Positions 22,845 to 64,000 of a DNA stretch of 64,000 bases are shown one piece after another. The notes beneath the pieces are model-generated. The model searched no databases. It saw only the letters and a list, made by a program, of their open reading frames with translations, and was not told the origin of the DNA. Position 1 is the stretch's first letter; each line of letters starts with the position of its first letter. Location: NCBI GenBank assembly GCA_037431425.1, contig GCA_037431425.1_4129.1. One strand, given 5' to 3'. A program made the translations under genes and the position numbers. The DNA comes from a phage.

Positions 22845-22845
22845 A

Positions 22846-23634: not shown

Positions 23635-23649
23635 TCAGAGGAAATTATT

Positions 23650-23832: not shown

Positions 23833-23841
23833 GGGTAAAGT

Positions 23842-24042
23842 ATGTTTAAATCAAATACAAATGTTGGTAAGAAGGTTAAATTACTTGAGGATGTATCCAC
23901 CTTGAGTGGAATTTTCCCAAGAGGTCACATCATGACTATTATTGCAGAAACATCCCGTGGGTGGGATTTGGAAGATGCTGATGGTAATCGCATCCTTGAG
24001 GCTGGATTCTATGGTCATCGTGAATATAAAATCATTGATTAA
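23842..24042 (+). CDS. hypothetical small protein
   Basis: Track ORF. Confidence 0.5.
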   Translation: MFKSNTNVGKKVKLLEDVSTLSGIFPRGHIMTIIAETSRGWDLEDADGNRILEAGFYGHREYKIID

Positions 24043-48436: not shown

Positions 48437-48484
48437 AATTTCTCTCCCTCATTCATTATACTGTATTTAACCCAATTAAGAAAA

Positions 48485-48503
48485 GCCAGTATCAAGTACT
48501 GGT
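48485..48503 (-). terminator. intergenic hairpin between RCC1-like paralogs
   Basis: CCAGTA-TCAAG-TACTGG preceded by A-run on + (T-run on - strand). Confidence 0.55.
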
Positions 48504-48509
48504 ATTTTA

Positions 48510-49859: not shown

Positions 49860-49906
49860 ATTTCCCTCCTTTATTCATTATACTATATTTAATACTAAAA
49901 GAAAAA

Positions 49907-49925
49907 GCCAGTACAGAGTACTGGC
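49907..49925 (-). terminator. intergenic hairpin between RCC1-like paralogs
   Basis: GCCAGTAC-AGA-GTACTGGC; T-run on - strand. Confidence 0.6.
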
Positions 49926-49931
49926 ATTATT

Positions 49932-51083: not shown

Positions 51084-51130
51084 ATTTCCCTCCTTTATTC
51101 ATTATACTATATTTAATACTAAAAGAAAAA

Positions 51131-51150
51131 GCCAGTACTTGAGTACTGGC
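51131..51150 (-). terminator. intergenic hairpin between RCC1-like paralogs
   Basis: GCCAGTACTTGAGTACTGGC; T-run on - strand. Confidence 0.6.
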
Positions 51151-51157
51151 TTTCTTA

Positions 51158-52348: not shown

Positions 52349-52391
52349 ATCCCCTCCTTATTCATTATACTATATTTAATCAAAAATAAAA

Positions 52392-52410
52392 GCCAGTATC
52401 AAGTACTGGC
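52392..52410 (-). terminator. intergenic hairpin between RCC1-like paralogs
   Basis: GCCAGTATCAAGTACTGGC. Confidence 0.6.
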
Positions 52411-52424
52411 ATAGTTTTATAATA

Positions 52425-53531: not shown

Positions 53532-53576
53532 ATCCCCTCCTTATTCATTATACTATATTTAATACAAATAAGAAAA

Positions 53577-53595
53577 GCCAGTATCAAGTACTGGC
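53577..53595 (-). terminator. intergenic hairpin between RCC1-like paralogs
   Basis: GCCAGTATCAAGTACTGGC. Confidence 0.6.
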
Positions 53596-53601
53596 CTATA
53601 T

Positions 53602-54771
53602 TTAAACTGGCGAATCTAATATAAATTCTAAACTACTAATGCCACCATATGTGACATCTGTTCCCGTGCTATATACAAAATTACCATCAGTTATATAAGT
53701 TCGGTTATAACTACCTGCCATCTGTGACTTACTATAATCAAACCCATCAGGTACGATTGCTTTGGTATATACTAATGCATTAGTAGATGTACCAATACCT
53801 AACATACCAGCTTGTGTAGATTGATTGTAGCCGCAACAATATATACCATCTGTTGTAGCAATAACTTGGTTATAATATGAAGTATTGTTAGCAATGCTTA
53901 CTACATCACCAGGTGGCATTAGTGATGCTGTTTGTACCTCAAATGCTCTATAATCTTTGAGAGAACCATCTTTCCCATCTGCTTGTGCACCAAATATTCT
54001 TGAACCACCATTTGCGATGATAGTTTTACCAGTAGGATCAGTGCCTATTGCCATTGCCATTGAAGTACCATTATTCACATAGTACTTTATATTAATTGTA
54101 TTACTTAAGCTGGTAGGAGCACCATAATATATATTATATAACTTACTTCCTGAACTTGTAACTGCATTGACTCTTCCTGTATAAAATAACCATCCTTGGT
54201 TTGTAACATAACCGTGCATTAAATTACTTGCAAACAATTTAACAGGTAATTGATTTGCTACGGTAGGAACAGTACTTTTGACGAATCTACCAGAAACATA
54301 GTTAATTGTTGTTCCATCACCCAACTGACCATCCGACCCTACTCCAGTACTCCATATTGTTTGGTCTGATAGTAACACACTTGTAGTCTGATAACTAATG
54401 GCTATATCTAATATTGGTAATGTTAATGTATTGAATATAGGCATAGCAGATGTCCATATTGATACTCCTGACCCTTTCATACCAACAGTTGTTGAACTTC
54501 CACTGTACCATATTTCATTATTGCTTTTCTTAACAACTATCGACGTGGCTCCCATCCAAAAATCTTCAACACCAGAAGTACTAAAAGTCCATGTAGTAAC
54601 AGTATTTTTGTGACCTAAACCCAAAATACCATATGCATTATCACCACGCACATATAAATCACCACTGTTTGTTAAAACAGCAACATTATCGTTGTTAGCA
54701 AGTATTTTTTTAATATTTGGTTTAGCAGGTGCAATATTCCCGTACTTAACCATCCTCGCAAAAGGTAACAA
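53602..54771 (-). CDS. RCC1-like repeat protein, paralog 6
   Basis: N-terminus MLPFARMVKYGNIAP; repeat GDNAYGILGLGHKN. Confidence 0.7.
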   Translation of the reverse strand: MLPFARMVKYGNIAPAKPNIKKILANNDNVAVLTNSGDLYVRGDNAYGILGLGHKNTVTTWTFSTSGVEDFWMGATSIVVKKSNNEIWYSGSSTTVGMKGSGVSIWTSAMPIFNTLTLPILDIAISYQTTSVLLSDQTIWSTGVGSDGQLGDGTTINYVSGRFVKSTVPTVANQLPVKLFASNLMHGYVTNQGWLFYTGRVNAVTSSGSKLYNIYYGAPTSLSNTINIKYYVNNGTSMAMAIGTDPTGKTIIANGGSRIFGAQADGKDGSLKDYRAFEVQTASLMPPGDVVSIANNTSYYNQVIATTDGIYCCGYNQSTQAGMLGIGTSTNALVYTKAIVPDGFDYSKSQMAGSYNRTYITDGNFVYSTGTDVTYGGISSLEFILDSPV

Positions 54772-54816
54772 AATTAAATCTCCAAAATTAAAATAATTAT
54801 ATAGTATTTACAAAAA

Positions 54817-54842
54817 TACCAGTACATATTTCAGTACTGGTA
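54817..54842 (-). terminator. intergenic hairpin between RCC1-like paralogs
   Basis: TACCAGTAC-ATATTTCA-GTACTGGTA. Confidence 0.55.
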
Positions 54843-54847
54843 TATTA

Positions 54848-55969
54848 TTAAAAGGGCAACGGTAACTCAGTAAAAGAACTTACGTCCGGTAAACCATACA
54901 TTGAATTAGCATCACCACAGTAATACCACTTCGTAGAATCATGTACCACCGATAAACGCAGTGCACATAACACTTCCTGTATGTCATTAAACACCATCGG
55001 GACTAACTCATATGTATCTGCAAATGAAGATACACCACCACTCGCATGAAAAGTATTTGTCCCAGCATAAAATAACTGATTAGTGTTCTTACCCACAGCA
55101 AATGTAATCAAATTCCCATCATTCTCCCATAAAGAAGAAAACTTATCAACACTACCAGAAAGCTCTGTGTAAGTACTCGTAATGGCATTAACCGCCGCCG
55201 CATTACCCATCTGTTTATTCAAGTTCTGCCCAGCAATAAAATATCTCGTTCGTGCACTAGAATCAGTATATAATAACCCAGTGTTCGTGGTCATCATTCC
55301 AATGTCCTTAATCGTCATACCAGGCTGTGAATAACTTAGATACGAAGTTAAATTAACATTATTACCCAACGAACCGTTAGAACTCATGCCACAACGATGT
55401 AATATACCACTTGTATCAACGTAGATAGTACTAACACCACTCGTATACAACTCTTGTACATTATTCGCAATAAACACAGCAGTCGCCTTATTACTAACCC
55501 CACCAAATGATAGGTTATTATCAAATCCCTTAGCGTATAATTGATTATTAGTAGTCAATAATCCAATCGTGTAATAAGACATTTTCATATCCCTTACTGT
55601 ACTCAAATCTACTGCCCCAAATTGATACGTAACATCTGTCCATTTGAAAATCTGTGCACTACCAACACCACCCGTTTCAAACCATTTGTCACCACAGTAC
55701 AATATGCGATTATCCTTAGTAAAGATAACTGTTAACGCTCCACTACCACACGCAAACTTTACATCACTTCTAACCTTCGTCCAATCACGTACATAGGTAG
55801 TGGTGTTATTACCTATACCTAACTTGCCATAACGGTTATAACCACGCACCCATAAATCACCACTCTTAGTAATTAATAGTAATGCGTCTCCTGTACTTAT
55901 TATTCGAAATCCCGATCTAGGATCAGGTACAATATTCCCGTACTTAACCATTCTCCCAAAAGGTAACAT
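54848..55969 (-). CDS. RCC1-like repeat protein, paralog 7
   Basis: N-terminus MLPFGRMVKYGNIVP; repeat GYNRYGKLGIGNN; first gene of the minus-strand array. Confidence 0.7.
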   Translation of the reverse strand: MLPFGRMVKYGNIVPDPRSGFRIISTGDALLLITKSGDLWVRGYNRYGKLGIGNNTTTYVRDWTKVRSDVKFACGSGALTVIFTKDNRILYCGDKWFETGGVGSAQIFKWTDVTYQFGAVDLSTVRDMKMSYYTIGLLTTNNQLYAKGFDNNLSFGGVSNKATAVFIANNVQELYTSGVSTIYVDTSGILHRCGMSSNGSLGNNVNLTSYLSYSQPGMTIKDIGMMTTNTGLLYTDSSARTRYFIAGQNLNKQMGNAAAVNAITSTYTELSGSVDKFSSLWENDGNLITFAVGKNTNQLFYAGTNTFHASGGVSSFADTYELVPMVFNDIQEVLCALRLSVVHDSTKWYYCGDANSMYGLPDVSSFTELPLPF

Positions 55970-56067: not shown

Positions 56068-56295
56068 ATGACAAATACCCTTAAGTACTACCTCAATACT
56101 CTGCCCGACCTAGAGTACGGGAAGTTTCTCGCAGATAGTTCGTGGCTGATTGAGCTAAAAACACATAACAGCCCTGGATGCACCCTTATGATGAACAATG
56201 CTATTGATACCCTTATAGTGAGTATTTTACATAGCAATATCTACAAGGATAACAATAAACAATTAACAAAAATATTAGTACTGCTATCTCTATGA
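56068..56295 (+). CDS. small protein, first member of tandem small-ORF array
   Basis: Track ORF 56014..56295 trimmed to ATG 56068 with SD taggaga, downstream of promoter 56014..56042. Confidence 0.5.
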   Translation: MTNTLKYYLNTLPDLEYGKFLADSSWLIELKTHNSPGCTLMMNNAIDTLIVSILHSNIYKDNNKQLTKILVLLSL

Positions 56296-56495
56296 ATATC
56301 GAACAGTTCTACATCAATGCACTACCAACTAAAAGTCTTCAAGAAAGCCTACTGTATACACAAAAGAATTTTAAAAACTTCAAACGTTGCCCTAAACTAC
56401 TGAACTCGTACATGAATAATATCATAAGAAATGTTTTACAAGGAGAAGAAAGTATGCAATACTATCACATCATTATCCTTATATTGGAGTACTAA
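56292..56495 (+). CDS. small array protein (about 67 aa)
   Basis: Track ORF; ATGA junction; hydrophobic C-terminus YHIIILILEY. Confidence 0.5.
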   Translation: MNIEQFYINALPTKSLQESLLYTQKNFKNFKRCPKLLNSYMNNIIRNVLQGEESMQYYHIIILILEY

Positions 56496-56496
56496 T

Positions 56497-56706
56497 ATGA
56501 ATACCGAACATAAAGAATTCTACACCAAATACCTCAGCAACGAAGAACAATTGTTTCTAAGAAGTGTATCACCTTTACGTATAGATACACCACACGCCAG
56601 AGAATGCTTTAATAATTGTATACGTAGTACCCTAGAAGCAATCGAATATAATAACAAAAATATTATGTACTCCAGTTTAATCGGACTAATATACTTCTAT
56701 GAATAA
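56497..56706 (+). CDS. small array protein (HKEFY...LIYFYE type)
   Basis: Track ORF 56431..56706 trimmed to ATG 56497 after upstream stop; near-paralog of 59716..59925. Confidence 0.5.
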   Translation: MNTEHKEFYTKYLSNEEQLFLRSVSPLRIDTPHARECFNNCIRSTLEAIEYNNKNIMYSSLIGLIYFYE

Positions 56707-56890
56707 TCATAAAGATTTCTATTGCAGTAAACTACACAAACAATACAGAGATTCATTTCCCAATGAACCTATGGATATGAATAGTCCCTTTTATAACTTT
56801 GACTTCAGACTGGAGACACGTTATGCAATAGAACATCAATTTCCTGAAACTAAGTACTTATCTATCATGAACCTCATCTTTAAGTTCTAA
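56699..56890 (+). CDS. small array protein
   Basis: Track ORF; HKDFY N-terminal motif. Confidence 0.45.
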   Translation: MNNHKDFYCSKLHKQYRDSFPNEPMDMNSPFYNFDFRLETRYAIEHQFPETKYLSIMNLIFKF

Positions 56891-56942
56891 AAGGTGCACC
56901 AAGGACAGAGTATTTTAATATAGTAAGGCTAATTACACTACC

Positions 56943-57128
56943 ATGAATCACATAAGCTACTACTACCAACAACTATCCGACAGAGACAAGTACAGTCACA
57001 ACTCCCATGTGTGGTACTACAAACGCGGCAGTATAAGAGACAAACATCATTACTTCAGTGCTGCTATAACAGAAGTACTAACAACTAAGTACACGTACAG
57101 AGCAGTACTGAAACTTATCTCTATATAA
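56943..57128 (+). CDS. small array protein, LKLISI subfamily
   Basis: Track ORF; C-terminal YTYRAVLKLISI. Confidence 0.5.
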   Translation: MNHISYYYQQLSDRDKYSHNSHVWYYKRGSIRDKHHYFSAAITEVLTTKYTYRAVLKLISI

Positions 57129-57136
57129 GGTACTAT

Positions 57137-57322
57137 ATGAATACATTTGAGTACTATACCAATAAACTATCTATGCCTGAAAGATCTCATCTCTATGTGT
57201 GGAGAAATGCGTATAAAAACGGAAATAAACTTATACAAAGAAATTCCCTTACAGTGTGTACCAATTTAATTAACGCAGAGTACCGCACATATATTGAAGT
57301 ACTGAAACTCATCTCTATCTAA
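57137..57322 (+). CDS. small array protein, LKLISI subfamily
   Basis: Track ORF; NTFEYY N-terminus; C-terminal YIEVLKLISI. Confidence 0.5.
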   Translation: MNTFEYYTNKLSMPERSHLYVWRNAYKNGNKLIQRNSLTVCTNLINAEYRTYIEVLKLISI

Positions 57323-57330
57323 GGTACTCT

Positions 57331-57510
57331 ATGCAAGAATTCTATATCTATAATCTCCAGCACAAAGATAGATACAACTATAATCAATTCCAAAGGTACT
57401 ACACCGTCGGGAACATCAAAGATAAAAAACGATACCTACTATCATGTACTGTAGATGCACAAAACAAAAAGTACACGTACAGAGAAGTACTGAAACTAAT
57501 TTCTATTTGA
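57331..57510 (+). CDS. small array protein, LKLISI subfamily (59 aa)
   Basis: Manually found, just under the track cutoff; C-terminal YTYREVLKLISI. Confidence 0.45.
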   Translation: MQEFYIYNLQHKDRYNYNQFQRYYTVGNIKDKKRYLLSCTVDAQNKKYTYREVLKLISI

Positions 57511-57518
57511 GGTAATAT

Positions 57519-57707
57519 ATGAATACTTTTGAGTACTACTTCAATAAACTAAATTCCATAGAACAAAATATGTACAATTCATATATTAAGTACTATCAAT
57601 CATCTGCACCTGGAATTAAAAATATATCAATAAAGATTATCACTAACCGTGTACTGACATCTGAACGTTATATGTATATGGATGCACTGAAACTCATCTC
57701 TATGTAA
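57519..57707 (+). CDS. small array protein, LKLISI subfamily
   Basis: Track ORF; NTFEYY N-terminus; C-terminal ALKLISM. Confidence 0.5.
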   Translation: MNTFEYYFNKLNSIEQNMYNSYIKYYQSSAPGIKNISIKIITNRVLTSERYMYMDALKLISM

Positions 57708-57717
57708 GGAATAAACT

Positions 57718-57897
57718 ATGAACAATTTCTATATAGAACACATAACCATAAAAGACCGTTTCATGTACGACACCTTCGTGAAGTACTACAACCTCGCAAC
57801 TAACAGTACTAAAAATATCAATCTCAATAGCTGCATACACCAAGCACTAACAAAAGAAAATCCCTTCAGGGAAATCCTTGCACTTGCATCTGTATAA
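57718..57897 (+). CDS. small array protein (59 aa)
   Basis: Manually found; C-terminal FREILALASV. Confidence 0.4.
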   Translation: MNNFYIEHITIKDRFMYDTFVKYYNLATNSTKNINLNSCIHQALTKENPFREILALASV

Positions 57898-57907
57898 AGG
57901 AATTCAA

Positions 57908-58573
57908 ATGAAACTTAATCCACAAAGTAAACAATACCTTAAGCACTTTAAGTACCTCAACAGTATTCAAGCAGAATCTATTACATCTTCTTATACTTAT
58001 CACCCGAATATACTAAAGAAACGAAATAAAAAGAATAAATCCAGTACAGATCTAGTATCAAAGAACCTCAAATCGTACTTGAAGAAAAATAATATCTCTA
58101 TTCATTGTGCGAATATCTATAATACTGATTTAAAAGCATTGAGTACTAATACCAGCACAAAAACACTAAAGAATACATCTATCTATATCTATATGCACCT
58201 GGATAATATCCCGTGCACTATAATTCTATCTTTCGGGAATGTATACTTCTTCGGGAATTGTAATACCACCCATGATATCCGTACAGCACAATTCCAAATC
58301 GGAGATATGTACTGCATGGGTTCAGAAAAAATACACGATAACATGCATTTCTTCCAACAGCAACGTACAGAAGAAACTAATACAGTACTAGAATTCCTCA
58401 AAGAACTTCAAAACAAAGAATTATCTCAAGAAGAACTATTCATGTACAGCACCGTAATCAATAATCCAGAACTCTACAAAAACGCGTACAATCTAACAAA
58501 ACATGTGCAGGAACTTATTAGTACTAATAAGAAAATTCATCACCTCATGACATATATTGCAAACTATGCATAA
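57908..58573 (+). CDS. hypothetical protein (about 221 aa) embedded in the small-ORF array
   Basis: Track ORF 57878..58573 trimmed to ATG 57908 with SD aaaggaa. Confidence 0.55.
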   Translation: MKLNPQSKQYLKHFKYLNSIQAESITSSYTYHPNILKKRNKKNKSSTDLVSKNLKSYLKKNNISIHCANIYNTDLKALSTNTSTKTLKNTSIYIYMHLDNIPCTIILSFGNVYFFGNCNTTHDIRTAQFQIGDMYCMGSEKIHDNMHFFQQQRTEETNTVLEFLKELQNKELSQEELFMYSTVINNPELYKNAYNLTKHVQELISTNKKIHHLMTYIANYA

Positions 58574-58751
58574 AGAATACTACCAAAATAAACTCCCAAT
58601 GCATCTACAACACCTTGTACCAACAGAACCATTGGGTATAGAAAAAGACTACGAAAAAGACTACTTCATTAAGTGCACCAAATCCTCAATAGATATTGAG
58701 GACTATAATCGAGTACTGTATCACATCCTTTTACTAATATATAAGTACTAA
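58566..58751 (+). CDS. small array protein, KEYYQNKLPM subfamily
   Basis: Track ORF 58557..58751 (TTG) trimmed to ATG 58566; C-terminal LLLIYKY. Confidence 0.5.
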   Translation: MHKEYYQNKLPMHLQHLVPTEPLGIEKDYEKDYFIKCTKSSIDIEDYNRVLYHILLLIYKY

Positions 58752-58752
58752 T

Positions 58753-58947
58753 ATGAATAATGAATACTATAAAGAATACTACCAAAATAAACTCCCTATG
58801 TATCTACAACACCTTATACCAACAAAACCTATTGGCATAAAAGATCATGAAAAAATAATGTTCCAACAATGTTCTAAGTACATCCTAATAGACGATCACA
58901 ATCCATATATGCTGTACTATATAATAATGCTAACATTCAGGTACTAA
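58753..58947 (+). CDS. small array protein, KEYYQNKLPM subfamily
   Basis: Track ORF; close paralog of 58566..58751. Confidence 0.55.
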   Translation: MNNEYYKEYYQNKLPMYLQHLIPTKPIGIKDHEKIMFQQCSKYILIDDHNPYMLYYIIMLTFRY

Positions 58948-58948
58948 T

Positions 58949-59131
58949 ATGCACAAAGAATACTACACACAATTTCTCCCCAGTATATTTGAACACTACG
59001 CCAGATATAAAGTCCCACTGGATAACGATTTGGCAGTACTCGGATTCAATAACTGCATAGAACGCAGTATAGAAAATAGTAGTTCATATGACCAACTATA
59101 TAACACTATCCTACTTATATTCAGGTACTAA
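58949..59131 (+). CDS. small array protein
   Basis: Track ORF; HKEYY N-terminus; C-terminal LLIFRY. Confidence 0.5.
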   Translation: MHKEYYTQFLPSIFEHYARYKVPLDNDLAVLGFNNCIERSIENSSSYDQLYNTILLIFRY

Positions 59132-59132
59132 T

Positions 59133-59321
59133 ATGTTTAAAGAATACTACGCAAAATATTTCCCAATGTATCTCAGAACTAATCTATTAGATAAACCTCG
59201 CGATATCAATGCTCAAAACGATAAAGTGTACTTTATTATGTGCACTAAAGCATGTATACTAGATCATGACAGCTACCATCGAGTACTCTATCATACACTG
59301 TACCTAACATTCGTGTACTAA
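59133..59321 (+). CDS. small array protein
   Basis: Track ORF 59088..59321 trimmed to ATG 59133; FKEYY N-terminus. Confidence 0.5.
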   Translation: MFKEYYAKYFPMYLRTNLLDKPRDINAQNDKVYFIMCTKACILDHDSYHRVLYHTLYLTFVY

Positions 59322-59331
59322 AGAGAACATT

Positions 59332-59526
59332 ATGCAACACAAGTTCAAAGAATTCTACTTAAGCCGCCTGGAACTAAACTCCCAAATGCTTATACCACTA
59401 AAACCAATAGATATCAAGGATAAGAAAAATACCCAACAATTCATCTACCATACACAGTGTGCTATCTCCCCAGATTATAATACATATAAATTGTACTATA
59501 TCATCGCCCTAATACTCAGGTACTAA
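59332..59526 (+). CDS. small array protein
   Basis: Track ORF; FKEFY N-terminus; C-terminal ALILRY. Confidence 0.5.
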   Translation: MQHKFKEFYLSRLELNSQMLIPLKPIDIKDKKNTQQFIYHTQCAISPDYNTYKLYYIIALILRY

Positions 59527-59528
59527 TC

Positions 59529-59714
59529 ATGTATAAAGAATACTACACACAATTTGTTAAAGAAAACTACAAATATGCCGTCCCCATAAAACCCTTAAAT
59601 GCTAATGACCCAAATACTATATTCCTGTTTAATGACGCAATACGTACAGTACTCAATACTAAAGATGAACAAGTGCAGTACGTATTCTTACTTTTACTTA
59701 TATACAGACACTAA
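59529..59714 (+). CDS. small array protein
   Basis: Track ORF; YKEYY N-terminus; C-terminal LLLIYRH. Confidence 0.5.
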   Translation: MYKEYYTQFVKENYKYAVPIKPLNANDPNTIFLFNDAIRTVLNTKDEQVQYVFLLLLIYRH

Positions 59715-59715
59715 T

Positions 59716-59925
59716 ATGAATAAAGTACATAAAGAATTCTATTCCAGATACCTCAGCCTATCAGAACAAATGTTTATAAGATCTACACCACCATTAAGTA
59801 CTGATACTTACTTCGGTAGAGTATGCTACAATAAATGTGTACAAATGACTTTAAACGCAAACGACAATAATAACAGTACTAACCTGTACTCAGGCATCAT
59901 AGGTATACTATTTCTATATGATTAA
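59716..59925 (+). CDS. small array protein
   Basis: Track ORF 59599..59925 trimmed to ATG 59716; near-paralog of 56497..56706. Confidence 0.5.
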   Translation: MNKVHKEFYSRYLSLSEQMFIRSTPPLSTDTYFGRVCYNKCVQMTLNANDNNNSTNLYSGIIGILFLYD

Positions 59926-60100
59926 AGAATATAAAGACTTCTACATAAGAAAACTAACATTCGTCCCCGTAAGAATATACAAAGAATGCGACCCAAGATT
60001 ATACCTATGGCACTTCAATGAGTGCATAAAAGATTCTATATACCCTAAGAACTATAAAGAACAATTGTGCTCAGTACTAACACTAGTACTATCATATTAA
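59918..60100 (+). CDS. small array protein
   Basis: Track ORF; IKEYKDFY N-terminus. Confidence 0.5.
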   Translation: MIKEYKDFYIRKLTFVPVRIYKECDPRLYLWHFNECIKDSIYPKNYKEQLCSVLTLVLSY

Positions 60101-60113
60101 TAGAGATAATACT

Positions 60114-60326
60114 ATGAATAAAGAACATAAAAACTTCTATATAAGTAAACTAAAAGAAAATGAACAAGTATGGATTAGATCTATAATAGAACTGGCATTT
60201 AATAGATACGCACTGAATAGATGTACACAGATTGCTATAGACCCTTATCCCATTGAAGAGGATGAAAAGGATGTACAGTACAATCAGTACTACTATATCT
60301 TAATGCTTATATATAGACCTATATAG
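60114..60326 (+). CDS. small array protein, last member
   Basis: Track ORF; NKEHKNFY N-terminus; C-terminal LMLIYRPI. Confidence 0.5.
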   Translation: MNKEHKNFYISKLKENEQVWIRSIIELAFNRYALNRCTQIAIDPYPIEEDEKDVQYNQYYYILMLIYRPI

Positions 60327-60340
60327 GAAACTACACAGGC

Positions 60341-60426
60341 GAATTGCTAAAATTCAGCCTGCTATACGTCTGAATTGTTAAAATTCAGCCTGCTATACGT
60401 CTGAATTGTTAAAATTCAGCCTGGAC
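60341..60426. repeat. tandem direct repeat, about 29-bp unit x 2.5
   Basis: AATTG(C/T)TAAAATTCAGCCTGCTATACGTCTG repeated head-to-tail. Confidence 0.8.
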
Positions 60427-60467
60427 AAATGCGATCACCAGGATTCTCTCCAGGCTAAACACCGTAG

Positions 60468-60535
60468 TCATAAGTAATCATAAGTAATCATATATAAACA
60501 TTTATATGAGCATTTATAAGCATTTATAAGCACCG
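60468..60535. repeat. short tandem repeats
   Basis: ATAAGTAATC x2 then ATTTATAAGC x2. Confidence 0.7.
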
Positions 60536-61027
60536 TAGAATCACAGAATGATTATATATGATTCAGTACTGCCCCAAAAGTATTCAGTACTGAAGAATTA
60601 CCCCTGAATGATTCAGTACTGATATGCCACTAAGTAGGCAGAGGAAGTCTGCCGTACTTTGTAGTTTCCAAGCTCCTTTTCCATTTTGCAAATTACATCA
60701 AATGTAATCAAAAGTAATCACGTAATGATTAGTACTGAAATATTAGTTTCATCTTTTTTCAAATACCTTTTTACCCTTCGGGGTAAATGTATTTTTACCC
60801 ATTTACCTTTGGGGTAAAATCCCATTACCCCTTGAGGCTCCAGCAAAAAGTTGGAAAGTACTCCATCCTAAATCTCGATCCTAAAAATTTTGGAGTACCT
60901 ATGAAATAAAAGTTGGATCTTCGAAAGTTGAAATTTACGTTGGGACGTTTATGATTTGTGGGATATAATGATGTTTGTAGTCGGGTAGTTCTCAAGAATA
61001 TCAGTACTGAATGGTGAAAGAAAGTTA

Positions 61028-61055
61028 TTGACATTATGATTCAGTACTGTATAAT
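61028..61055 (+). promoter_or_regulatory. sigma70-type promoter (TTGACA-N16-TATAAT) in the non-coding region
   Basis: Consensus; TTCAGTACTG immediately upstream of -10; no obvious ORF downstream. Confidence 0.55.
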
Positions 61056-61383
61056 GTTCTACATAGAGAGATGAGTTGCTGCGAACAATTCATTTACTCT
61101 ACCTCCTGTCGTGAGACAGTACAGAAAAGATAGTTCCTCCTGTGGTGGTACATCTTTTTGAACCTCATATGAAAATCGTAATAACAGTACTGGTATTAAC
61201 AGAATGGTATCAGTACTGACTTTAATCTAATACATTATACCACCAGCTTGTGCTGGTGGATTCCCTCTAACAGTATTCAGTACTACATGATAGTCTTCAT
61301 CCTCCTAGGGTAACATAGTGAGGGCTATTGTGGGAGTACTGAATACTCCTTTCAAAAGATAGAATAATGGTATAGTACCGACG

Positions 61384-62000
61384 GATTTTGGGCGTAGTTA
61401 CCCTGGGTGTATTTTGGACGTAGATATGTCTAGCCCTCCAGAAGTCTGGAAGTAAAGATGGCTATCTATCTAGACGGCTAAACGGCTAGATTTCTAGATG
61501 GCTGTATGGCTAGACGTTTGGATGGCTAAACGGCTAAACGGCTAGATGGTTACACGTCTGGAAGTATAGACGGCTAAATCAAAATTTTTATTTTGTTTTT
61601 CCAATAGTTCCCCTACCGCGTGAGGATATTTTTTCCCCGCAGTATCTGGAGTTAGATTTTTCTGAATCTGGAATCATTATCTAATAAACTGGGGGCAATG
61701 TCAACCGCCTGGATGAATATTTTTAAAAAATAATCTAGTACTAAATTTTGGGCGTAACTATGCACCCGGTGGGCTTGAGTCTTTCTCGACTTGATGAAAT
61801 AATTATATCAGTACTGAAAAAATAAAGCAATACCCTAAACGCAAAAAAAATTTAATTAATTTGCTTGCTATTCTGGGCCGTACTATGGTACTATTAATTC
61901 AGTACTGAGAAAGTGCTTTTACCTGCTAGGGTGCGGGAGTGTATCCTTTTTAAATTTTATGAATTTTGGGCAGATCTCCGCACCCTGTGGGTTAGTGCCT
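61384..62000. repeat. dispersed copies of ATTTTGGGCG...CACCC(G/T)GTGGG element
   Basis: Copies near 61384, 61745, 61958, with a partial copy at 63940. Confidence 0.55.
61441..61575. repeat. iteron-like cluster of degenerate short repeats
   Basis: At least 8 copies of GGCTA(A/G/T)ACGG / ATGGCT(A/G)T units bracketed by CCAGAAGTCTGGAAGTA and CACGTCTGGAAGTAT. Confidence 0.75.
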
Positions 62001-62204
62001 TGTGTCCGGCTTATGTAGTAATTATACGCTTTTTCAGTACTGAGTCAATACCTAAAAACAAAATAATTGAAAATAATTTAACGCGTTTAAACGGCCCGTA
62101 AAGCCCTGGAATGATTAGAATGGTGCAAATGTATAGCTTAGGTGTAATATCTCGTTAGAATGCGACTGAGGCCGTTTTACGGGGTATAGGGATGATTTAG
62201 TGGA

Positions 62205-62296
62205 TTGATTCAGTACTGAATAATAGTACTCCTATATAGAAAGATAGTTCCCCTGGATGGTTGCAGTACTGAATAATAGTACTCCTATATAGAAAG
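62205..62296. repeat. direct repeat pair, about 38 bp
   Basis: CAGTACTGAATAATAGTACTCCTATATAGAAAGA occurs twice about 50 bp apart. Confidence 0.8.
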
Positions 62297-62329
62297 AAAA
62301 CTATTTTAAAAAGTATTTGTAGAAAGTAC

Positions 62330-62358
62330 TTGCACCGTACTGATAAAAGCGTATAATG
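62330..62358 (+). promoter_or_regulatory. promoter (TTGCAC-N17-TATAAT) plus conserved leader hairpin
   Basis: Followed by GAGAGCGGGAGCACTTCCCGCT stem-loop before ORF 62356. Confidence 0.6.
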
Positions 62359-62775
62359 TTTTACATCGAGAGCGGGAGCACTTCCCGCTACACATTAAGA
62401 GAGATTAAAACGATGGCGACTCAAATCAATAAAATTATTGCTAACCTGGTTAACTTCCGTGAAGAGATGAAAGGTCTTCCGGCTGAAACGGTAAAAATTC
62501 ACATTTCAGCTTATCGGGAACTTATTGCAATGTTACCGCTTAAGCGTGAACAATACGCCGCTACCGTGATGCTTGATGCGATGATCAATAAGATGATCGC
62601 CAGTGATTTAACGATGGTTTATCAGTACATGGGCGAAAATTTCGCGGTGTCTGGTAAGCCAGTACCAGGGATGGCAACTACTGAGGAATTGCACGGTTTA
62701 AATTTAAAACAAGATGCATGGGATAATATGCCTCGTTTCCTGGTATGGGCTGACAGTGGCAAAATTTACAAATAA
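62356..62775 (+). CDS. hypothetical protein (139 aa)
   Basis: Track ORF with own promoter 62330..62358 and leader hairpin; more G/C-rich codons than the rest of the window. Confidence 0.6.
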   Translation: MFYIESGSTSRYTLREIKTMATQINKIIANLVNFREEMKGLPAETVKIHISAYRELIAMLPLKREQYAATVMLDAMINKMIASDLTMVYQYMGENFAVSGKPVPGMATTEELHGLNLKQDAWDNMPRFLVWADSGKIYK

Positions 62776-62790
62776 GTTTAATAAAGTACT

Positions 62791-62819
62791 TGCCAACTAA
62801 GTTTAAAAGCGTATAATAC
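62791..62819 (+). promoter_or_regulatory. promoter (TTGCCA-N17-TATAAT)
   Basis: Same AAGCGTATAAT core as 62330 and 63496; leader hairpin GGGAAGTTTAAAAACTTCCC. Confidence 0.6.
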
Positions 62820-62896
62820 TTTACATCAGGTGCAACGGGAAGTTTAAAAACTTCCCTATAGGGGAATAGTTCCCCACTATATAAGAGGATTAAAAA

Positions 62897-63136
62897 ATGG
62901 CTAAATCAAAAATGTTCTTAGGTCACAAAAACAAAACTCATTGGAATGTAAGCCTTTGGATTAATAACGATGAATCATTATACCGGTTGGCCCTGGACTT
63001 TATTGCCGCTAATACTAATCGCAATGATGCGGCCCGTCATATGATGTTATTTTTAGAACAGACTGGACAAGATAAAACACCGGACGGATTCAAATATAGC
63101 ACTACTGCGATCCGTGCGGCGATGGTTGGAATGTAA
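62897..63136 (+). CDS. hypothetical small protein
   Basis: Track ORF with own promoter 62791..62819; SD agagga. Confidence 0.6.
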   Translation: MAKSKMFLGHKNKTHWNVSLWINNDESLYRLALDFIAANTNRNDAARHMMLFLEQTGQDKTPDGFKYSTTAIRAAMVGM

Positions 63137-63150
63137 TAGAATTTATTTAA

Positions 63151-63184
63151 AGTACTATCGCAAAAAATGATAGTACTTTATAAT
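63151..63184 (+). promoter_or_regulatory. palindromic operator-like site (AGTACTATC-N9-GATAGTACT) overlapping a -10 TATAAT
   Basis: Perfect 9-bp inverted repeat flanking a 9-bp spacer, ending at the TATAAT at 63179. Confidence 0.45.
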
Positions 63185-63221
63185 AGTGTTTTATTCATAC
63201 ACCAACGATAAGGGCAATAGC

Positions 63222-63488
63222 ATGAATATTAAGTATTTTGCGACGCGTGAACAAGCTCGGAAGGCGGCGAAAGTGGAAGGTGCAACGTTTAAAGATATGG
63301 GCATACAATCGGAACGTGGTAAACGTTGGGCCATTGTAAAGCGTAGTACAGCCAGATCATTACAGTACTGGTTAGCGGCTTTAAAAAGTCCTGCTAGTGT
63401 ATCGCGTCGAGTGGTAGAAATAAAGCTCGACCGTAAGGGGAATCGTGTTACCGTGTACCGTACTAAAAAGATAGCAGTACTTGAATAA
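63222..63488 (+). CDS. hypothetical basic protein
   Basis: Track ORF 63186..63488 starts upstream of the predicted TSS; ATG 63222 after aaggg is preferred. Confidence 0.5.
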   Translation: MNIKYFATREQARKAAKVEGATFKDMGIQSERGKRWAIVKRSTARSLQYWLAALKSPASVSRRVVEIKLDRKGNRVTVYRTKKIAVLE

Positions 63489-63495
63489 AAAGAAC

Positions 63496-63523
63496 TTGCA
63501 AACTATGTTTAATGGCGTATAAT
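63496..63523 (+). promoter_or_regulatory. promoter (TTGCAA-N16-TATAAT) plus conserved leader hairpin
   Basis: Followed by GAGAGCGGGAACACTTCCCGCC, near-identical to the leader at 62370. Confidence 0.6.
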
Positions 63524-63575
63524 GTTTTACATCGAGAGCGGGAACACTTCCCGCCTATAAACTGGAGTAATAAAA

Positions 63576-63806
63576 ATGACTAATATGTATATGACTGAAG
63601 TTAAAACCGTAAAAGATACTACCACGAATAAAACTACTTACTTACAGCGGATCTGCGGTGTATGGCAACGTATCAGCAAATCAAAGTACTATAAATTAAC
63701 ATCATATGCCAATCGTTCGGATTCATTCAGTACTGAAATAAAAGGTAATAAAGTACACCAATACGGCACTTATTATTATTATAGCCTGGACGCGATTGCA
63801 GTATAA
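63576..63806 (+). CDS. hypothetical small protein
   Basis: Track ORF with own promoter 63496..63523 and leader hairpin. Confidence 0.55.
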   Translation: MTNMYMTEVKTVKDTTTNKTTYLQRICGVWQRISKSKYYKLTSYANRSDSFSTEIKGNKVHQYGTYYYYSLDAIAV

Positions 63807-63836
63807 GTAGTTTACAAATCTTTACAATTGCCGGTA

Positions 63837-63865
63837 TTGACTTAAAATGTCAGTACTGGCATAAT
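63837..63865 (+). promoter_or_regulatory. sigma70-type promoter (TTGACT-N17-CATAAT)
   Basis: Contains CAGTACTG; near the window end. Confidence 0.45.
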
Positions 63866-64000
63866 GTATCTATTGAAACGAACAATTTGGCCCACGGGGT
63901 GCGGGAGTGTATCTATAGCAAAATTAGTTTAGTATAATTACAATTGTGCACCCGGTGGGTTAGCTGTTGTCATGGGGTATATTATGCCAGTACTTGATAA

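What the first reader, a model, noticed from the sequence alone, without database searches (positions are those of the whole stretch)
62300..64000. Four G/C-richer genes, each with its own promoter and a conserved 5' leader hairpin
ORFs 62356, 62897, 63222 and 63576 each have a TTGC(A/C)-N16-17-(GCG)TATAAT promoter. Two leaders share the stem-loop GAGAGCGGGA(G/A)CACTTCCCGC and a third has GGGAAGTTTAAAAACTTCCC. The promoter at 63179 is overlapped by a perfect palindrome AGTACTATC-N9-GATAGTACT. Codons look more G/C-rich than elsewhere, suggesting a distinct regulon or recent acquisition; the leader hairpins may be RNA-level regulatory elements.
Basis: seen in the sequence. Interest (0 to 1): 0.5.

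Follow-up and report, generated by a model that had tools for sequence, protein, structure and literature searches.

The report
Phage early promoter-hairpin gene cassettes
These four small genes are the first of about fifty in the terminal repeat of a jumbo E. coli phage. Each sits on a stereotyped, swappable cassette of host-type promoter, short leader hairpin and ribosome site, which is a known kind of phage gene-shuffling module seen here in a new phage group and a new layout.

Summary
The window comes from an Asteriusvirus (121Q/PBECO4-like jumbo coliphage). Window position 60633 aligns with the experimentally mapped left genome end of fEgEco12, so the four ORFs are g01-g04, the first genes of the ~21-kb direct terminal repeat (DTR).

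- **Promoters.** Three of the four genes (P1 62330, P2 62790, P4 63496) have a stereotyped cassette: UP-like AAAAAGTAC, TTGCAA, N16, TATAAT, GTTTTACATC, a G-run/C-run hairpin, an A-rich spacer, SD and ATG. Gene 3 has only a -10 box plus the palindrome.
- **Start of gene 1.** ORF "62356" starts at the ATG inside TATAATG; the real start is 62413.
- **Extent.** The cassette is a DTR-wide family. In fEgEco12, 26 covariance-model hits all lie at 1.7-20.2 kb and none at 21-45 kb. There are none in the other 60 kb of this window.
- **Hairpin.** Its structure is conserved, with compensatory changes across 45 sequence variants, and it has no U-tract.
- **Composition.** Higher GC and host-like codons (few AGA/ATA/CTA) characterise the whole DTR, not just these four genes.
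- **Exchange.** The genes and cassettes are shared and shuffled with unrelated 140-150-kb coliphages, and one indel is bounded by cassettes.

The closest known kind is the PeSL cassette of T4-type phages, but here the stem-loop lies in the transcribed leader. The hairpin's mechanism remains inferred.

The parts
60633..60633 (.). Position matching the physical left end of the genome and the start of the direct terminal repeat
   Evidence: fEgEco12 record position 1 (termini set by PhageTerm and restriction digests, PMC13070987) aligns here. The alignment is 91.5% identical over 3375 columns up to window 64000.
62320..62412 (+). Cassette P1. UP-like AAAGTAC 62324-62329; -35 TTGCAC 62330-62335; -10 TATAAT 62352-62357; predicted TSS ~62364; hairpin AGCGGGA-GCACT-TCCCGCT 62371-62389; SD AAGAGAGA 62397-62404.
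   Evidence: The leader folds with MFE -12.3 kcal/mol (z -3.0) and leaves the SD and ATG unpaired. Covariance-model R1 hit of 63 bits.
62413..62775 (+). Gene 1 (120 aa; fEgEco12 g01, 121Q gp266); function unknown
   Evidence: The start was reassigned from 62356. It matches phrog_7352 (unknown function) and has no Pfam, NCBIfam or PDB match. A homologue exists in Justusliebigvirus JLBYU50.
62780..62896 (+). Cassette P2 with a two-hairpin leader. -35 TTGCCA 62790-62795; -10 TATAAT 62812-62817; hairpin 2a 62837-62856; hairpin 2b 62861-62875; SD AAGAGGA.
   Evidence: MFE -19.9 kcal/mol. R1 hit of 27.7 bits. The same two-hairpin subtype occurs at ph0011 L008:14035.
62897..63136 (+). Gene 2 (79 aa, DUF7249 / phrog_871); function unknown
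   Evidence: Pfam E = 1.8e-10. It has 340 homologues. The AF2 model has pLDDT 86 and four helices, with no significant structural match. The segment is 82-89% nucleotide-identical to 130-155-kb coliphages.
63151..63184 (+). Doubtful promoter P3. The palindrome AGTACTATC-N9-GATAGTACT (63151-63177) directly abuts TATAAT (63179-63184). There is no -35 box and no leader hairpin.
   Evidence: The 9-nt spacer is the reverse complement of the spacer in five relatives. Paralogous promoters with an intact TTGACA occur at L008:18474 and upstream of L008:11552.
63222..63488 (+). Gene 3 (88 aa, phrog_8127); function unknown
63486..63575 (+). Cassette P4. -35 TTGCAA 63496-63501; -10 TATAAT 63518-63523; predicted TSS ~63530; hairpin GCGGGA-ACACT-TCCCGC 63538-63554; SD GGAG.
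   Evidence: R1 hit of 62.8 bits. As a 93-nt BLAST query it finds 536 places in 119 phage records.
63576..63806 (+). Gene 4 (76 aa, phrog_5293); function unknown
   Evidence: It is 89.9% nucleotide-identical over 296 nt to Justusliebigvirus JLBYU50, and that homology begins at the -10 box.
63837..63865 (+). Next promoter of the array (TTGACT-17-CATAAT, with AGTACT just upstream of the -10). The array continues beyond the window end.
   Evidence: The continuation is seen in ph0011 and fEgEco12.

Best explanation
The four ORFs are the first genes of the immediate-early ('host-takeover'-type) gene array that fills the ~21-kb direct terminal repeat of an Asteriusvirus jumbo coliphage.

**Cassette layout.** Almost every small gene in that repeat sits on a stereotyped cassette of about 100 nt:
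- a proximal-UP-like A-tract (AAAAAGTAC);
- a -35 box TTGCAA, a 16-nt spacer and a -10 box TATAAT;
- a conserved initial transcribed sequence, GTTTTACATC;
- a 6-10-bp G-run/C-run hairpin starting about +4 to +8;
- an A-rich spacer of about 20 nt, then the SD and the ATG.

**Inferred mechanism.**
- Host sigma-70 RNA polymerase fires all these promoters as soon as a genome end enters the cell.
- No intrinsic terminators separate the cassettes, so transcripts overlap.
- The hairpin acts in the RNA as a structure-only element. It would give each message a folded 5' region and, in read-through transcripts, form an intercistronic block to exonucleases and to interference from upstream folding, while leaving the A-rich ribosome-binding region open.
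- At the DNA level, the conserved cassette serves as portable homology through which small genes are inserted, deleted, swapped and exchanged between unrelated coliphages.

**Composition.** The higher GC and host-like codon usage fit one or both of two things. The genes may be translated before phage tRNAs are available, or they may come from a gene pool shared with GC-richer phages.
For: **Shown: location**
- The window is 96% identical to ph0011 and 93% to fEgEco12.
- fEgEco12 position 1 aligns with window 60633. Its termini and 20,993-bp DTR were determined experimentally (PMC13070987).

**Shown: the cassette family**
- The consensus of 95 distinct copies is tttaAaAAAGtacTTGcaa-N16-TATAATgtTTTAcATcgag.gggGgaa. 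In 48 of 95 copies, at least 8 of 9 positions match the proximal UP subsite AAAAAARNR (consensus from PMC4132738).
- Of 84 distinct leaders, 76% carry a perfect hairpin of dG <= -6 kcal/mol. The figure is 11% for dinucleotide shuffles and 4.5% for random genome windows.
- The hairpin starts 10-14 nt after the -10 box in 58 of 64 cases, with a 7-9-bp stem and a 3-5-nt loop.
- The distance from the -10 box to the ATG is 50-52 nt in 34 of the 61 cassettes where a start codon was assigned, and the tract after the hairpin is 50% A.

**Shown: structure conservation**
- There are 45 distinct hairpin sequences.
- Compensatory pairs are seen: GC 41 / UA 8 / CG 7 / AU 2 at one position and GC 40 / CG 17 at another. 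No shuffle out of 500 reaches the observed covariation score or the observed fraction of paired cells.

**Shown: restriction to the DTR**
- Covariance model R1 gives 26 hits in fEgEco12, all on the + strand at 1685-20154, and none at 21-45 kb. GC falls there from 0.38-0.40 to 0.29-0.34, and the genes become 4-nt-overlapping.
- In this window there are three hits, all beyond 62.3 kb.

**Shown: codon usage (bulk genes against DTR genes)**
- AGA 25% against 5-8%; ATA 24% against 7-19%; CTA 14% against 0-6%; ACA 39% against 10-14%; CCG 9% against 30-43%.
- The window encodes tRNA-Arg(TCT) and tRNA-Thr(TGT).

**Shown: shuffling**
- The gene families of genes 1, 2 and 4, and at least nine further DTR families, recur in a different order in Justusliebigvirus JLBYU50, in phage A5-4 (Vequintavirinae) and in Vequintavirus FFH2.
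- The gene-4 homology with JLBYU50 (90%) starts inside the cassette, at the -10 box.
- PBECO4 has an extra ORF between genes 1 and 2, flanked by two direct-repeat cassettes of about 65 nt, and the junction lies inside the cassette.

**Shown: not a terminator and not an SD trap**
- 63 of 64 hairpins have at most 3 T in the following 8 nt.
- No + strand terminator is predicted in 62.3-64 kb.
- The SD and ATG are unpaired in the predicted folds.
Against: - No transcription start site, timing or RNA-stability data exist for any Asteriusvirus that I could find. Early expression and the TSS positions are therefore inferred from sequence.
- With the usual TSS 7 nt after the -10 box, 3-7 nt would be unpaired 5' of the stem. 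From memory of Emory, Bouvet and Belasco (1992), classic 5'-terminal stabilisers tolerate fewer unpaired nucleotides than that.
- The preference for the transcribed strand is weak. Mean hairpin dG is -11.3 on the sense strand against -10.4 on the antisense strand, and G-U pairs number 36/428 against 20/392. The Wilcoxon p of 0.018 comes from non-independent copies.
- 'G-arm first' carries no strand information, because the complement of such a hairpin reads the same way.
- Loop flips (ACACT/AGTGT, ACTCT/AGAGT) show DNA-level hairpin or inverted-repeat events.
- Many copies are related by descent and gene conversion, which inflates the covariation statistics.
- Some annotators' software labels these hairpins as terminators (G17 record; ASO2A record).
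- Gene 3 does not follow the cassette pattern.
Confidence: 0.6

Rival explanations
1. The stem-loop is a transcription attenuator or terminator, as proposed and partly shown for PeSL stem-loops in RB49/phi1. It would damp read-through from upstream cassettes so that each gene is driven mainly by its own promoter.
For: - PeSL stem-loops are also poly-G followed by poly-C, and one reduced lacZ expression as strongly as rrnB T1 (PMC2839356).
- ARNOLD-based annotation in the G17 record labels one such leader hairpin a terminator (L002 5431-5450), and the ASO2A record does the same.
- About 26 same-direction strong promoters in 20 kb would otherwise sum their transcription.
Against: - The hairpin lies downstream of its own predicted TSS, so it would equally attenuate its own transcripts.
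- 63 of 64 hairpins have at most 3 T in the 8 nt after the stem.
- The terminator scan finds none on the + strand in 62.3-64 kb.
- True terminator-promoter composites with T-runs do exist elsewhere in the same window (29863, 38907, 42311, 42882), so this phage uses canonical terminators where it needs them.
Confidence: 0.15
2. The hairpin is the recognition site of a trans-acting factor (a phage or host RNA-binding protein or RNase) that co-ordinately controls translation or decay of all immediate-early messages. That would make it an RNA-level early-shut-off regulon.
For: - One element sits at a fixed position in about 26 leaders of a single temporal class.
- The flank ACATC(G/A)AG and the core GGGGA...TCCCC are conserved.
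- T4 uses RegA and RegB on early mRNAs (general knowledge).
Against: - Loops vary in length (3-5 nt, sometimes more) and in sequence, and they even flip orientation. That argues against loop-specific recognition of the boxB or MS2 kind.
- No boxA-like element is apparent on inspection.
- There is no Rfam match.
- No candidate factor was identified.
Confidence: 0.12
3. The palindrome matters only as DNA, as a recombination or replication-slippage hotspot or as a passive relic of cassette duplication, and has no role in the RNA.
For: - Loop flips occur in hairpins, and the P3 palindrome spacer is also flipped.
- Indel junctions and homology junctions lie inside cassettes.
- Strand asymmetry is only weak.
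Against: - The position relative to the -10 box and the ATG is fixed.
- Compensatory changes maintain the pairing across 45 variants.
- Every copy is co-oriented with its promoter and gene.
- G-U pairs are commoner on the sense strand.
- Homology for recombination would not need a stem.
Confidence: 0.1
4. One reading: these four genes are a recently acquired, compositionally foreign islet with its own regulon.
For: - Genes 1-3 are among the most GC-rich ORFs of the window.
- Gene 2 and gene 4 are 85-90% nucleotide-identical to genes in unrelated phage subfamilies.
Against: - The four genes occur in the same order and place in most of the nine Asteriusvirus genomes examined (window plus eight relatives).
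- The GC and codon shift covers the whole 21-kb repeat.
- The window simply ends four genes into the array.
Confidence: 0.03

Closest known systems
PeSL (promoter-early stem-loop) cassettes of T4-type phages RB49/phi1, PST/T4 and nt-1/KVP40 (Arbiol et al. 2010, PMC2839356; Comeau et al. 2014, PMC4122927)
   Same: - Both are repeated intergenic composites of about 70-100 nt: an AT-rich upstream region, a strong sigma-70-type -35/-10, a stable stem-loop of poly-G followed by poly-C, then the SD and start codon.
- Both are concentrated in regions full of small ORFans.
- In both, indels between close relatives are flanked by cassettes, and the cassettes act as homologous linkers for module shuffling.
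   Different: - PeSL stem-loops lie upstream of or at the transcription start (in the upstream AT-rich region, over the -35, between the boxes, over the -10, or just before +1) and are described as terminators.
- Here the stem-loop is always 10-14 nt downstream of the -10 box, in the predicted leader, and lacks a U-tract.
- The hosts of the element are Asteriusvirus jumbo phages plus Stephanstirmvirinae and Vequintavirinae, not Straboviridae.
- The array coincides with a long direct terminal repeat.
- Mini-circles have not been examined.
[quoted passage not shown] 1998, as summarised in PMC6873191); the pre-early region in the terminal repeat of T5 (from memory)
   Same: Both are clusters of small early genes located in the terminal repeat, with many host-type strong promoters and strong ribosome-binding sites.
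   Different: - SPO1 has 12 operons for 24-26 genes. A repeated promoter-plus-hairpin cassette is not a described feature there.
- The host and the sigma factor differ.
- No functions are known for the genes in this window.
Morons of lambdoid phages (Hendrix and colleagues; discussed in PMC2839356)
   Same: Both are single genes that travel with their own promoter.
   Different: Morons are not flanked by a conserved, repeated linker sequence, and they usually carry their own terminator. Here the regulatory cassette is itself the repeated homology.
5'-proximal stabilising stem-loops (ompA 5' UTR; the GGGAGACCACAACGGTTTCCC stem-loop at the start of the T7 phi10 leader; from memory)
   Same: Both are short GC-rich hairpins near the 5' end, followed by an open A/U-rich translation-initiation region. 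The stem design is strikingly similar (compare GGGGAAACGGTTTCCCC here).
   Different: - Those hairpins start within 0-4 nt of the 5' end, whereas here 3-7 unpaired nucleotides are predicted.
- No stability data exist for this hairpin.
RpoD-like promoters with UP-like elements predicted in the early region and terminal repeat of the Rak2-like jumbo phage CBB (PMC5259590)
   Same: It belongs to the same broad phage group, and sigma-70 promoters with UP-like elements are concentrated before short hypothetical ORFs, including in the terminal repeat.
   Different: That paper mentions no stem-loop and does not treat the promoters as repeated mobile cassettes (0 occurrences of 'stem-loop').

Membership tests
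PeSL cassettes | Intergenic sigma-70-type -35/-10 with an AT-rich upstream region | tested here: met
   P1, P2 and P4 qualify. The consensus of 95 copies includes an AAAAAARNR-like A-tract. P3 does not qualify.
PeSL cassettes | An adjacent stable stem-loop, typically poly-G followed by poly-C | tested here: met
   76% of 84 leaders have such a hairpin, against 11% of shuffles. The 5' arm has G:C = 232:23.
PeSL cassettes | SD and start codon of the downstream small ORF at the 3' end of the element | tested here: met
   The -10-to-ATG distance is 50-52 nt in 34 of the 61 cassettes where a start codon was assigned.
PeSL cassettes | Many copies concentrated in a hyperplastic region of small ORFans | tested here: met
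   There are 26 hits within fEgEco12 1.7-20.2 kb and none at 21-45 kb. In this window there are three hits, all in the last 1.7 kb.
PeSL cassettes | Indels or replacements between close relatives bounded by cassettes | tested here: met
   The extra ORF in PBECO4 is flanked by two direct-repeat cassettes of about 65 nt. The JLBYU50 homology junction lies at the -10 box. Only a few junctions were examined.
PeSL cassettes | Stem-loop placed upstream of or at the transcription start and acting as a terminator or attenuator | tested here: not met
   The stem begins 10-14 nt after the -10 box, and 63 of 64 have at most 3 T in the next 8 nt. Actual termination could not be tested.
PeSL cassettes | Formation of encapsidated mini-circles by recombination between cassettes | not testable with these tools
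   This needs inverse PCR on phage DNA.
Intrinsic (Rho-independent) terminator | GC-rich hairpin immediately followed by a U-tract | tested here: not met
Lambda-type nut site (boxA + boxB) | A conserved loop of fixed length and sequence for N binding, and a boxA element | tested here: not met
   Loops are 3-5 nt or longer, variable, and flip orientation. No boxA-like motif appears in the cassette consensus, though that was checked by inspection only. There is no Rfam hit.
5'-terminal mRNA-stabilising stem-loop (ompA type) | Hairpin within a few nucleotides of the 5' end that prolongs half-life | tested here: inconclusive
   A predicted 3-7 nt lie unpaired upstream of the stem. The TSS and half-lives are unknown.
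Terminal-repeat early / host-takeover module (SPO1, T5 type) | A cluster of small genes with host-type promoters lying inside the direct terminal repeat | tested here: met
   The DTR is inferred for this phage by collinearity with fEgEco12.
Terminal-repeat early / host-takeover module (SPO1, T5 type) | Expression immediately after infection, and host shut-off functions | not testable with these tools
   No transcriptome was found. The four proteins have no assignable function.
Any Rfam family | Covariance-model match | tested here: not met
   No hit at E <= 1 in 60300-64000. Only tRNAs reach the gathering threshold in the whole window.

The most novel reading that the evidence does not exclude
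The leader hairpin and the AGTACT palindromes that straddle these promoters are cis-elements of dedicated phage factors. AGTACT sits on the edge of the -35 box in 62 of 95 cassettes and just before the -10 box in 27 of 95, and it is 8-fold over-represented genome-wide in all reading frames. In this reading, an RNA-binding or RNase activity switches all ~26 immediate-early messages off (or protects them) through the hairpin. A DNA-binding or DNA-modifying protein reads AGTACT genome-wide and occludes the early promoters. Together they would form a two-layer early-to-middle switch not described for any phage group.
Probability: 0.12. Interest if true: 0.65.

Novelty: new variant of a known kind. 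Interest (0 to 1): 0.4.

Why it matters
**Wider reach of a known concept.** The finding extends the 'mobile regulatory cassette' (PeSL) idea beyond T4-type phages. It now covers Asteriusvirus jumbo coliphages and two subfamilies of 140-150-kb coliphages. These unrelated phages draw on one common pool of small early genes, each pre-packaged with a promoter, a leader and a ribosome site.

**Practical uses.**
- It gives a rule for finding the immediate-early (probably host-takeover or anti-defence) genes of these therapeutic-candidate phages.
- It explains a recurrent annotation error: ORFs started at the ATG inside TATAATG, which gives a spurious N-terminal 'MFYIESG...'.
- It supplies a compact set of natural promoter-leader parts.

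**A specific testable point.** The terminal repeat forms a compositionally and organisationally distinct compartment with host-like codon usage. That makes it possible to test whether early genes avoid the codons served by the phage's own tRNAs.

Tried and rejected
- **Known RNA families.** Rfam at gathering threshold over the whole window found only six tRNAs. At E <= 1 over 60.3-64 kb it found nothing.
- **Protein function for the four genes.**
  - Pfam matched only DUF7249, for gene 2. PHROGs families were all of unknown function. NCBIfam gave nothing, and PDB sequence search gave nothing meaningful.
  - The protein queries for gene 1 started at 62404, three residues upstream of the true ATG. 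This does not affect the results.
- **Terminator reading.** Rejected on the absence of T-tracts.
- **SD sequestration, thermometer or riboswitch reading.** Rejected because the SD and ATG are unpaired in all predicted folds.
- **'G-rich arm first' as evidence for the RNA strand.** Rejected on reflection, because the complement of such a hairpin has the same polarity. A symmetric sense/antisense comparison gave only a weak bias.
- **Paired spacing of AGTACT sites genome-wide.** There is only a slight excess at 20-21 bp.
- **Distant DUF7249 loci.** Pseudomonas phage M1 and a GC-rich metagenomic contig do not carry the cassette, so it does not travel with that gene everywhere.
- **Literature.** I found no description of leader hairpins, PeSLs or AGTACT enrichment in Asteriusvirus, Rak2-like or rV5-like phages. 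The searched library is incomplete.


Full report
**Where the window comes from**

Megablast of 62300-64000 finds 150 phage records. Full-length matches are to Asteriusvirus jumbo coliphages: ph0011 at 96%; JP4, G17 and fEgEco12 at about 93-94%; 121Q at 89%. In fEgEco12 the match lies at record positions 1634-3306. That record is laid out from its physical termini, which were determined by PhageTerm and confirmed by restriction digests, with 20,993-bp direct terminal repeats (PMC13070987). Its position 1 aligns with window 60633, and the alignment is 91.5% identical and collinear to the window end. The four ORFs are therefore g01-g04. They are the first genes inside the direct terminal repeat (DTR), 1.8-3.2 kb from the left genome end, and they follow a 1.7-kb non-coding, repeat-rich stretch.

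**Check of the observation**

- P1: TTGCAC 62330-35, N16, TATAAT 62352-57.
- P2: TTGCCA 62790-95, N16, TATAAT 62812-17.
- P4: TTGCAA 63496-501, N16, TATAAT 63518-23.

The other sequence features also check out:
- The 21-nt hairpin motif occurs exactly twice, against 0 expected.
- The -10 box plus initial transcribed motif GCGTATAATRYTTTACATC occurs three times, against 0.11 expected.
- P1 and P4 are 83% identical over 69 nt.
- The P2 leader has two hairpins, at 62837-56 and 62861-75.
- All leaders fold as predicted and leave the SD and ATG unpaired.
- The palindrome AGTACTATC-N9-GATAGTACT (63151-77) abuts TATAAT 63179-84.

Three corrections are needed. No -35 box better than 3/6 exists for the gene-3 promoter, and its leader has no hairpin, so P3 is doubtful. 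ORF '62356' starts at the ATG inside TATAATG; the real start is 62413, with an SD at 62397-404 and a 120-aa product, as annotated in ph0011 and 121Q. The same artefact produces N-terminal 'MFYIESG...' in fEgEco12 g01 and in database homologues of gene 2.

On composition, genes 1-3 rank 3rd, 4th and 1st of 139 ORFs for GC, with GC3 of 0.36-0.45 against about 0.26. Gene 4 is average.

**The cassette is a family, not a four-gene peculiarity**

Scanning the relatives shows that nearly every small gene of the DTR is preceded by the same element. The consensus of 95 distinct copies is tttaAaAAAGtac-TTGcaa-N16-TATAAT-gtTTTAcATcgag-gggGgaa.... The A-tract matches the proximal UP subsite AAAAAARNR (PMC4132738) at 8 or more of 9 positions in 48 of 95 copies.

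Hairpin statistics:
- Of 84 distinct leaders, 76% contain a perfect hairpin of dG <= -6 kcal/mol. The figure is 11% for dinucleotide shuffles of the same leaders and 4.5% for random 48-nt pieces of the window.
- The stem starts 10-14 nt after the -10 box in 58 of 64 cases, is 7-9 bp long in 57 of 64, and has a 3-5-nt loop in 60 of 64.
- The -10-to-ATG distance is 50-52 nt in 34 of the 61 cassettes where a start codon was assigned. The tract between hairpin and ATG is 50% A.
- There are 45 distinct hairpin sequences.

On a MAFFT alignment and on a covariance-model alignment, three to five stem positions show compensatory changes. One pair is GC 41 / UA 8 / CG 7 / AU 2 and another is GC 40 / CG 17. 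None of 500 column shuffles reaches the observed covariation score or the observed fraction of paired cells. The relatedness of the copies inflates such statistics.

The covariance model (R1) finds 90 copies in the window plus 11 loci, all on the gene strand. Only three are in this window, at 62352, 62812 and 63518.

In fEgEco12 it finds 26 copies, all at 1,685-20,154, inside the DTR (1-20,993), and none at 21-45 kb. At that boundary GC falls from 0.38-0.40 to 0.29-0.34. Gene organisation also switches there, from intergenic gaps of about 85 nt to 4-nt overlaps.

**Composition**

The 36 DTR genes of ph0011 average GC 0.39 and GC3 0.35. Codon usage in the four genes and in 32 further DTR genes departs from the bulk of the window in the same direction:

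| Codon | Bulk genes | DTR genes |
|---|---|---|
| AGA (Arg) | 25% | 5-8% |
| CGA (Arg) | 15% | 2-5% |
| ATA (Ile) | 24% | 7-19% |
| CTA (Leu) | 14% | 0-6% |
| ACA (Thr) | 39% | 10-14% |
| CCG (Pro) | 9% | 30-43% |
| GGC (Gly) | 7% | 24-29% |

From general knowledge, these DTR values are close to E. coli's own preferences. The window itself encodes tRNA-Arg(TCT), tRNA-Thr(TGT) and tRNA-Ser(TGA). Two non-exclusive inferences follow. The genes may be translated before phage tRNAs accumulate, and they may come from a pool shared with GC-richer phages.

**Exchange and shuffling**

- Window 62862-63141 (hairpin 2b, SD and gene 2) is 82-89% identical to more than 100 records of 130-155-kb coliphages, including Phapecoctavirus, Justusliebigvirus and Vequintavirus.
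- Clustering the small ORFs shows that the families of genes 1, 2 and 4, and at least nine other DTR families, recur in a different order in JLBYU50, A5-4 and FFH2.
- Gene 4 is 89.9% identical over 296 nt to JLBYU50, and the homology begins at the -10 box.
- The 93-nt P4 cassette finds 536 places in 119 records, up to 24 per Asteriusvirus record. Its promoter half is also found in other Rak2-like jumbo phages, including inside the annotated DTR of Klebsiella phage fENko-Kae01.
- PBECO4 and A4 carry an extra 77-aa ORF between genes 1 and 2. In PBECO4 it is flanked by two cassettes that form direct repeats of about 65 nt, and the junction relative to this window lies inside the cassette.
- Orthologous genes carry different hairpin variants in different phages, as expected from recombination or gene conversion among cassettes.
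- Hairpin loops flip between copies (ACACT/AGTGT, ACTCT/AGAGT). The 9-nt spacer of the P3 palindrome is inverted relative to five relatives (gcaaaaaat against attttttgc). Inverted repeats therefore do undergo DNA-level events here, and loop orientation is not constrained.
- Distant DUF7249 genes in a Pseudomonas phage and in a GC-rich contig lack the cassette.

**How it most likely works**

Shown:
- the location in the DTR;
- the repeated architecture;
- conservation of pairing;
- the absence of U-tracts (63 of 64 hairpins have at most 3 T in the next 8 nt) and of predicted + strand terminators;
- an accessible SD and ATG;
- cassette-bounded rearrangement.

Inferred:
- Host sigma-70 polymerase transcribes these genes immediately after entry. 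Whichever end enters first carries a copy.
- Transcripts read through neighbouring cassettes.
- The hairpin is a structure-only RNA element that stabilises or insulates each message.
- The cassette DNA is the homology that lets genes be shuffled.

The strand test gives only weak support for an RNA role (sense -11.3 against antisense -10.4 kcal/mol; G-U pairs 36/428 against 20/392). The predicted 3-7 unpaired 5' nucleotides are more than classic 5'-terminal stabilisers tolerate (from memory). I therefore hold the identity of the element with high confidence and the hairpin's mechanism with moderate to low confidence. The rivals are listed separately in this report: an attenuator, a factor-binding site, and a DNA-only role.

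**Comparison with what is known**

The closest described kind is the PeSL cassette of T4-type phages (PMC2839356, PMC4122927). It shares the AT-rich upstream region, a strong sigma-70 promoter, a poly-G/poly-C stem-loop, the SD and ATG, clustering among ORFans, and the flanking of indels. The difference is position and form. PeSL stem-loops lie upstream of or at the start site and behave as terminators. Here the stem-loop is always in the predicted leader and has no U-tract.

The window also contains true PeSL-style composites, in which the -35 box lies inside a terminator stem (GGGTTGACTtcggTCAACCC-TTTTT-gc-TATAAT at 29863, 38907, 42311 and 42882). The two designs therefore coexist in one genome.

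[quoted passage not shown] Sigma-70 promoters with UP-like elements in the early region and terminal repeat were predicted for the Rak2-like phage CBB, without mention of a stem-loop (PMC5259590). I found no description of this cassette or hairpin in Asteriusvirus, rV5-like or phAPEC8-like phages.

**The proteins**

None of the four proteins has an assignable function. Gene 2 (DUF7249) is a well-conserved four-helix protein with invariant GHKN..WNVSLWINNDE and TPDG..YS..IRAAM motifs. Its confident model has no significant structural neighbour. Other DTR genes are annotated in fEgEco12 as spackle, DksA-like and GNAT. Those labels are the record's own and were not checked.

**Verdict**

The element is a new variant of a known kind of phage regulatory and recombination cassette, in new lineages. 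It is of moderate interest.

Noticed in passing
whole window; for example 7628-7653, 24154, 36740, 51134-51147, 60565-62283: AGTACT (usually CAGTACTG) is the most over-represented word in the window, with 184 copies against 21.8 expected. CAGTAC, GTACTG and AGTACT are the top three of all 4096 hexamers, and CAGTACTG occurs 43 times against 0.7 expected. In genes it falls equally in all three reading frames (41/37/41). Density reaches 7.8 per kb near the genome end and is about 20-fold above expectation in all Asteriusvirus DTR loci, but the word is not enriched in the Justusliebigvirus and Vequintavirinae loci. It sits on the edge of the -35 box (62 of 95 cassettes) and just before the -10 box (27 of 95), and it builds the stems of minus-strand terminators. 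This suggests a DNA-level signal such as a protein-binding or modification site. I found no literature on it.
   Followed up: partly
63151-63177: The 9-nt spacer of the P3 palindrome (gcaaaaaat) is the exact reverse complement of the spacer in fEgEco12, G17, PBECO4, WPEC3 and ph0011 (attttttgc). It is a 'flip' between the inverted-repeat arms. Leader-hairpin loops show the same kind of flip (ACACT/AGTGT, ACTCT/AGAGT).
   Followed up: partly
60633-62412: A 1.7-kb non-coding stretch lies between the inferred genome end and gene 1. It holds a perfect 12/12 sigma-70 promoter (61028-61055) driving a strongly structured non-coding leader (dG -20.7 kcal/mol, z -3.1). It also has an iteron-like array with 8-nt periodicity (ACGGCTAR/ATGGCTAR, 61458-61578) and a 53-bp direct duplication (62201-62297). 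Three copies of a GC-rich element lie at 61744-61783, 61962-62001 and 63942-63960; at least the 61962 copy lies within a long hairpin (GGGTGCGGGAG...CTCCGCACCC, 61929-61987). Divergent minus-strand promoters lie at 62048 and 61830. These may be small RNAs, an origin, or packaging signals.
   Followed up: partly
29863, 38907, 42311, 42882 (+ strand): Composite terminator-promoters in which the -35 hexamer lies inside a terminator stem: GGGTTGACTtcggTCAACCC-TTTTT-gc-TATAAT. This is the classic PeSL layout, and it is distinct from the leader-hairpin class of the DTR.
   Followed up: no
47291-55969 (- strand): Seven tandem paralogous genes of 368-449 aa; the three I tested have RCC1-like beta-propeller repeats. 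Most, and probably all, are followed by a terminator whose stem is built from AGTACT words (aagCCAGTACTtgAGTACTGGctt). They form the only long minus-strand block in the window, and the GC skew reverses there.
   Followed up: partly
56068-60326 (+ strand): At least 15 tandem paralogous ORFs of about 60 aa (M.KEYY / KEFY... N-termini), tightly packed just upstream of the DTR boundary. They have negative GC skew although they are on the + strand. There is no Pfam match.
   Followed up: no
62356; also fEgEco12 g01 and DUF7249 homologues P0055/P0056: Gene callers often start these genes at the ATG inside TATAATG. This gives a spurious N-terminal extension, 'MFYIESG...', which is simply the translated promoter and leader cassette.
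   Followed up: yes
L012 (fEgEco12) 20993-24000: At the inner DTR boundary, gene organisation changes abruptly from one promoter cassette per gene (gaps of about 85 nt) to long runs of genes overlapping by 4 nt. GC drops from 0.38-0.40 to 0.29-0.34 there.
   Followed up: yes
L001 3362-3480 and equivalents (ph0011 L008 6694-6812 and 17317-17433): Some cassettes are followed not by an ORF but by a structured non-coding stretch of about 110 nt (GACGGGGAACGAAATAAGTAACTTCCCGTT...CCAGGAGTAAGG...) and then a second promoter. This may be a small RNA gene present at least twice per DTR. It lies just beyond the end of this window.
   Followed up: no
6153-9988: A cluster of six tRNA genes: Ser-TGA, Arg-TCT, Ser-GCT, Met-CAT, Asn-GTT and Thr-TGT. 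Two of them, Arg-TCT and Thr-TGT, read codons (AGA, ACA) that are common in the bulk genes but avoided in the DTR genes; TCA (Ser-TGA) shows no such difference.
   Followed up: partly
60341-60423: A 31-bp tandem repeat of 2.7 copies at 98% identity (GAATTGTTAAAATTCAGCCTGCTATACGTCT), immediately before the inferred genome end.
   Followed up: no
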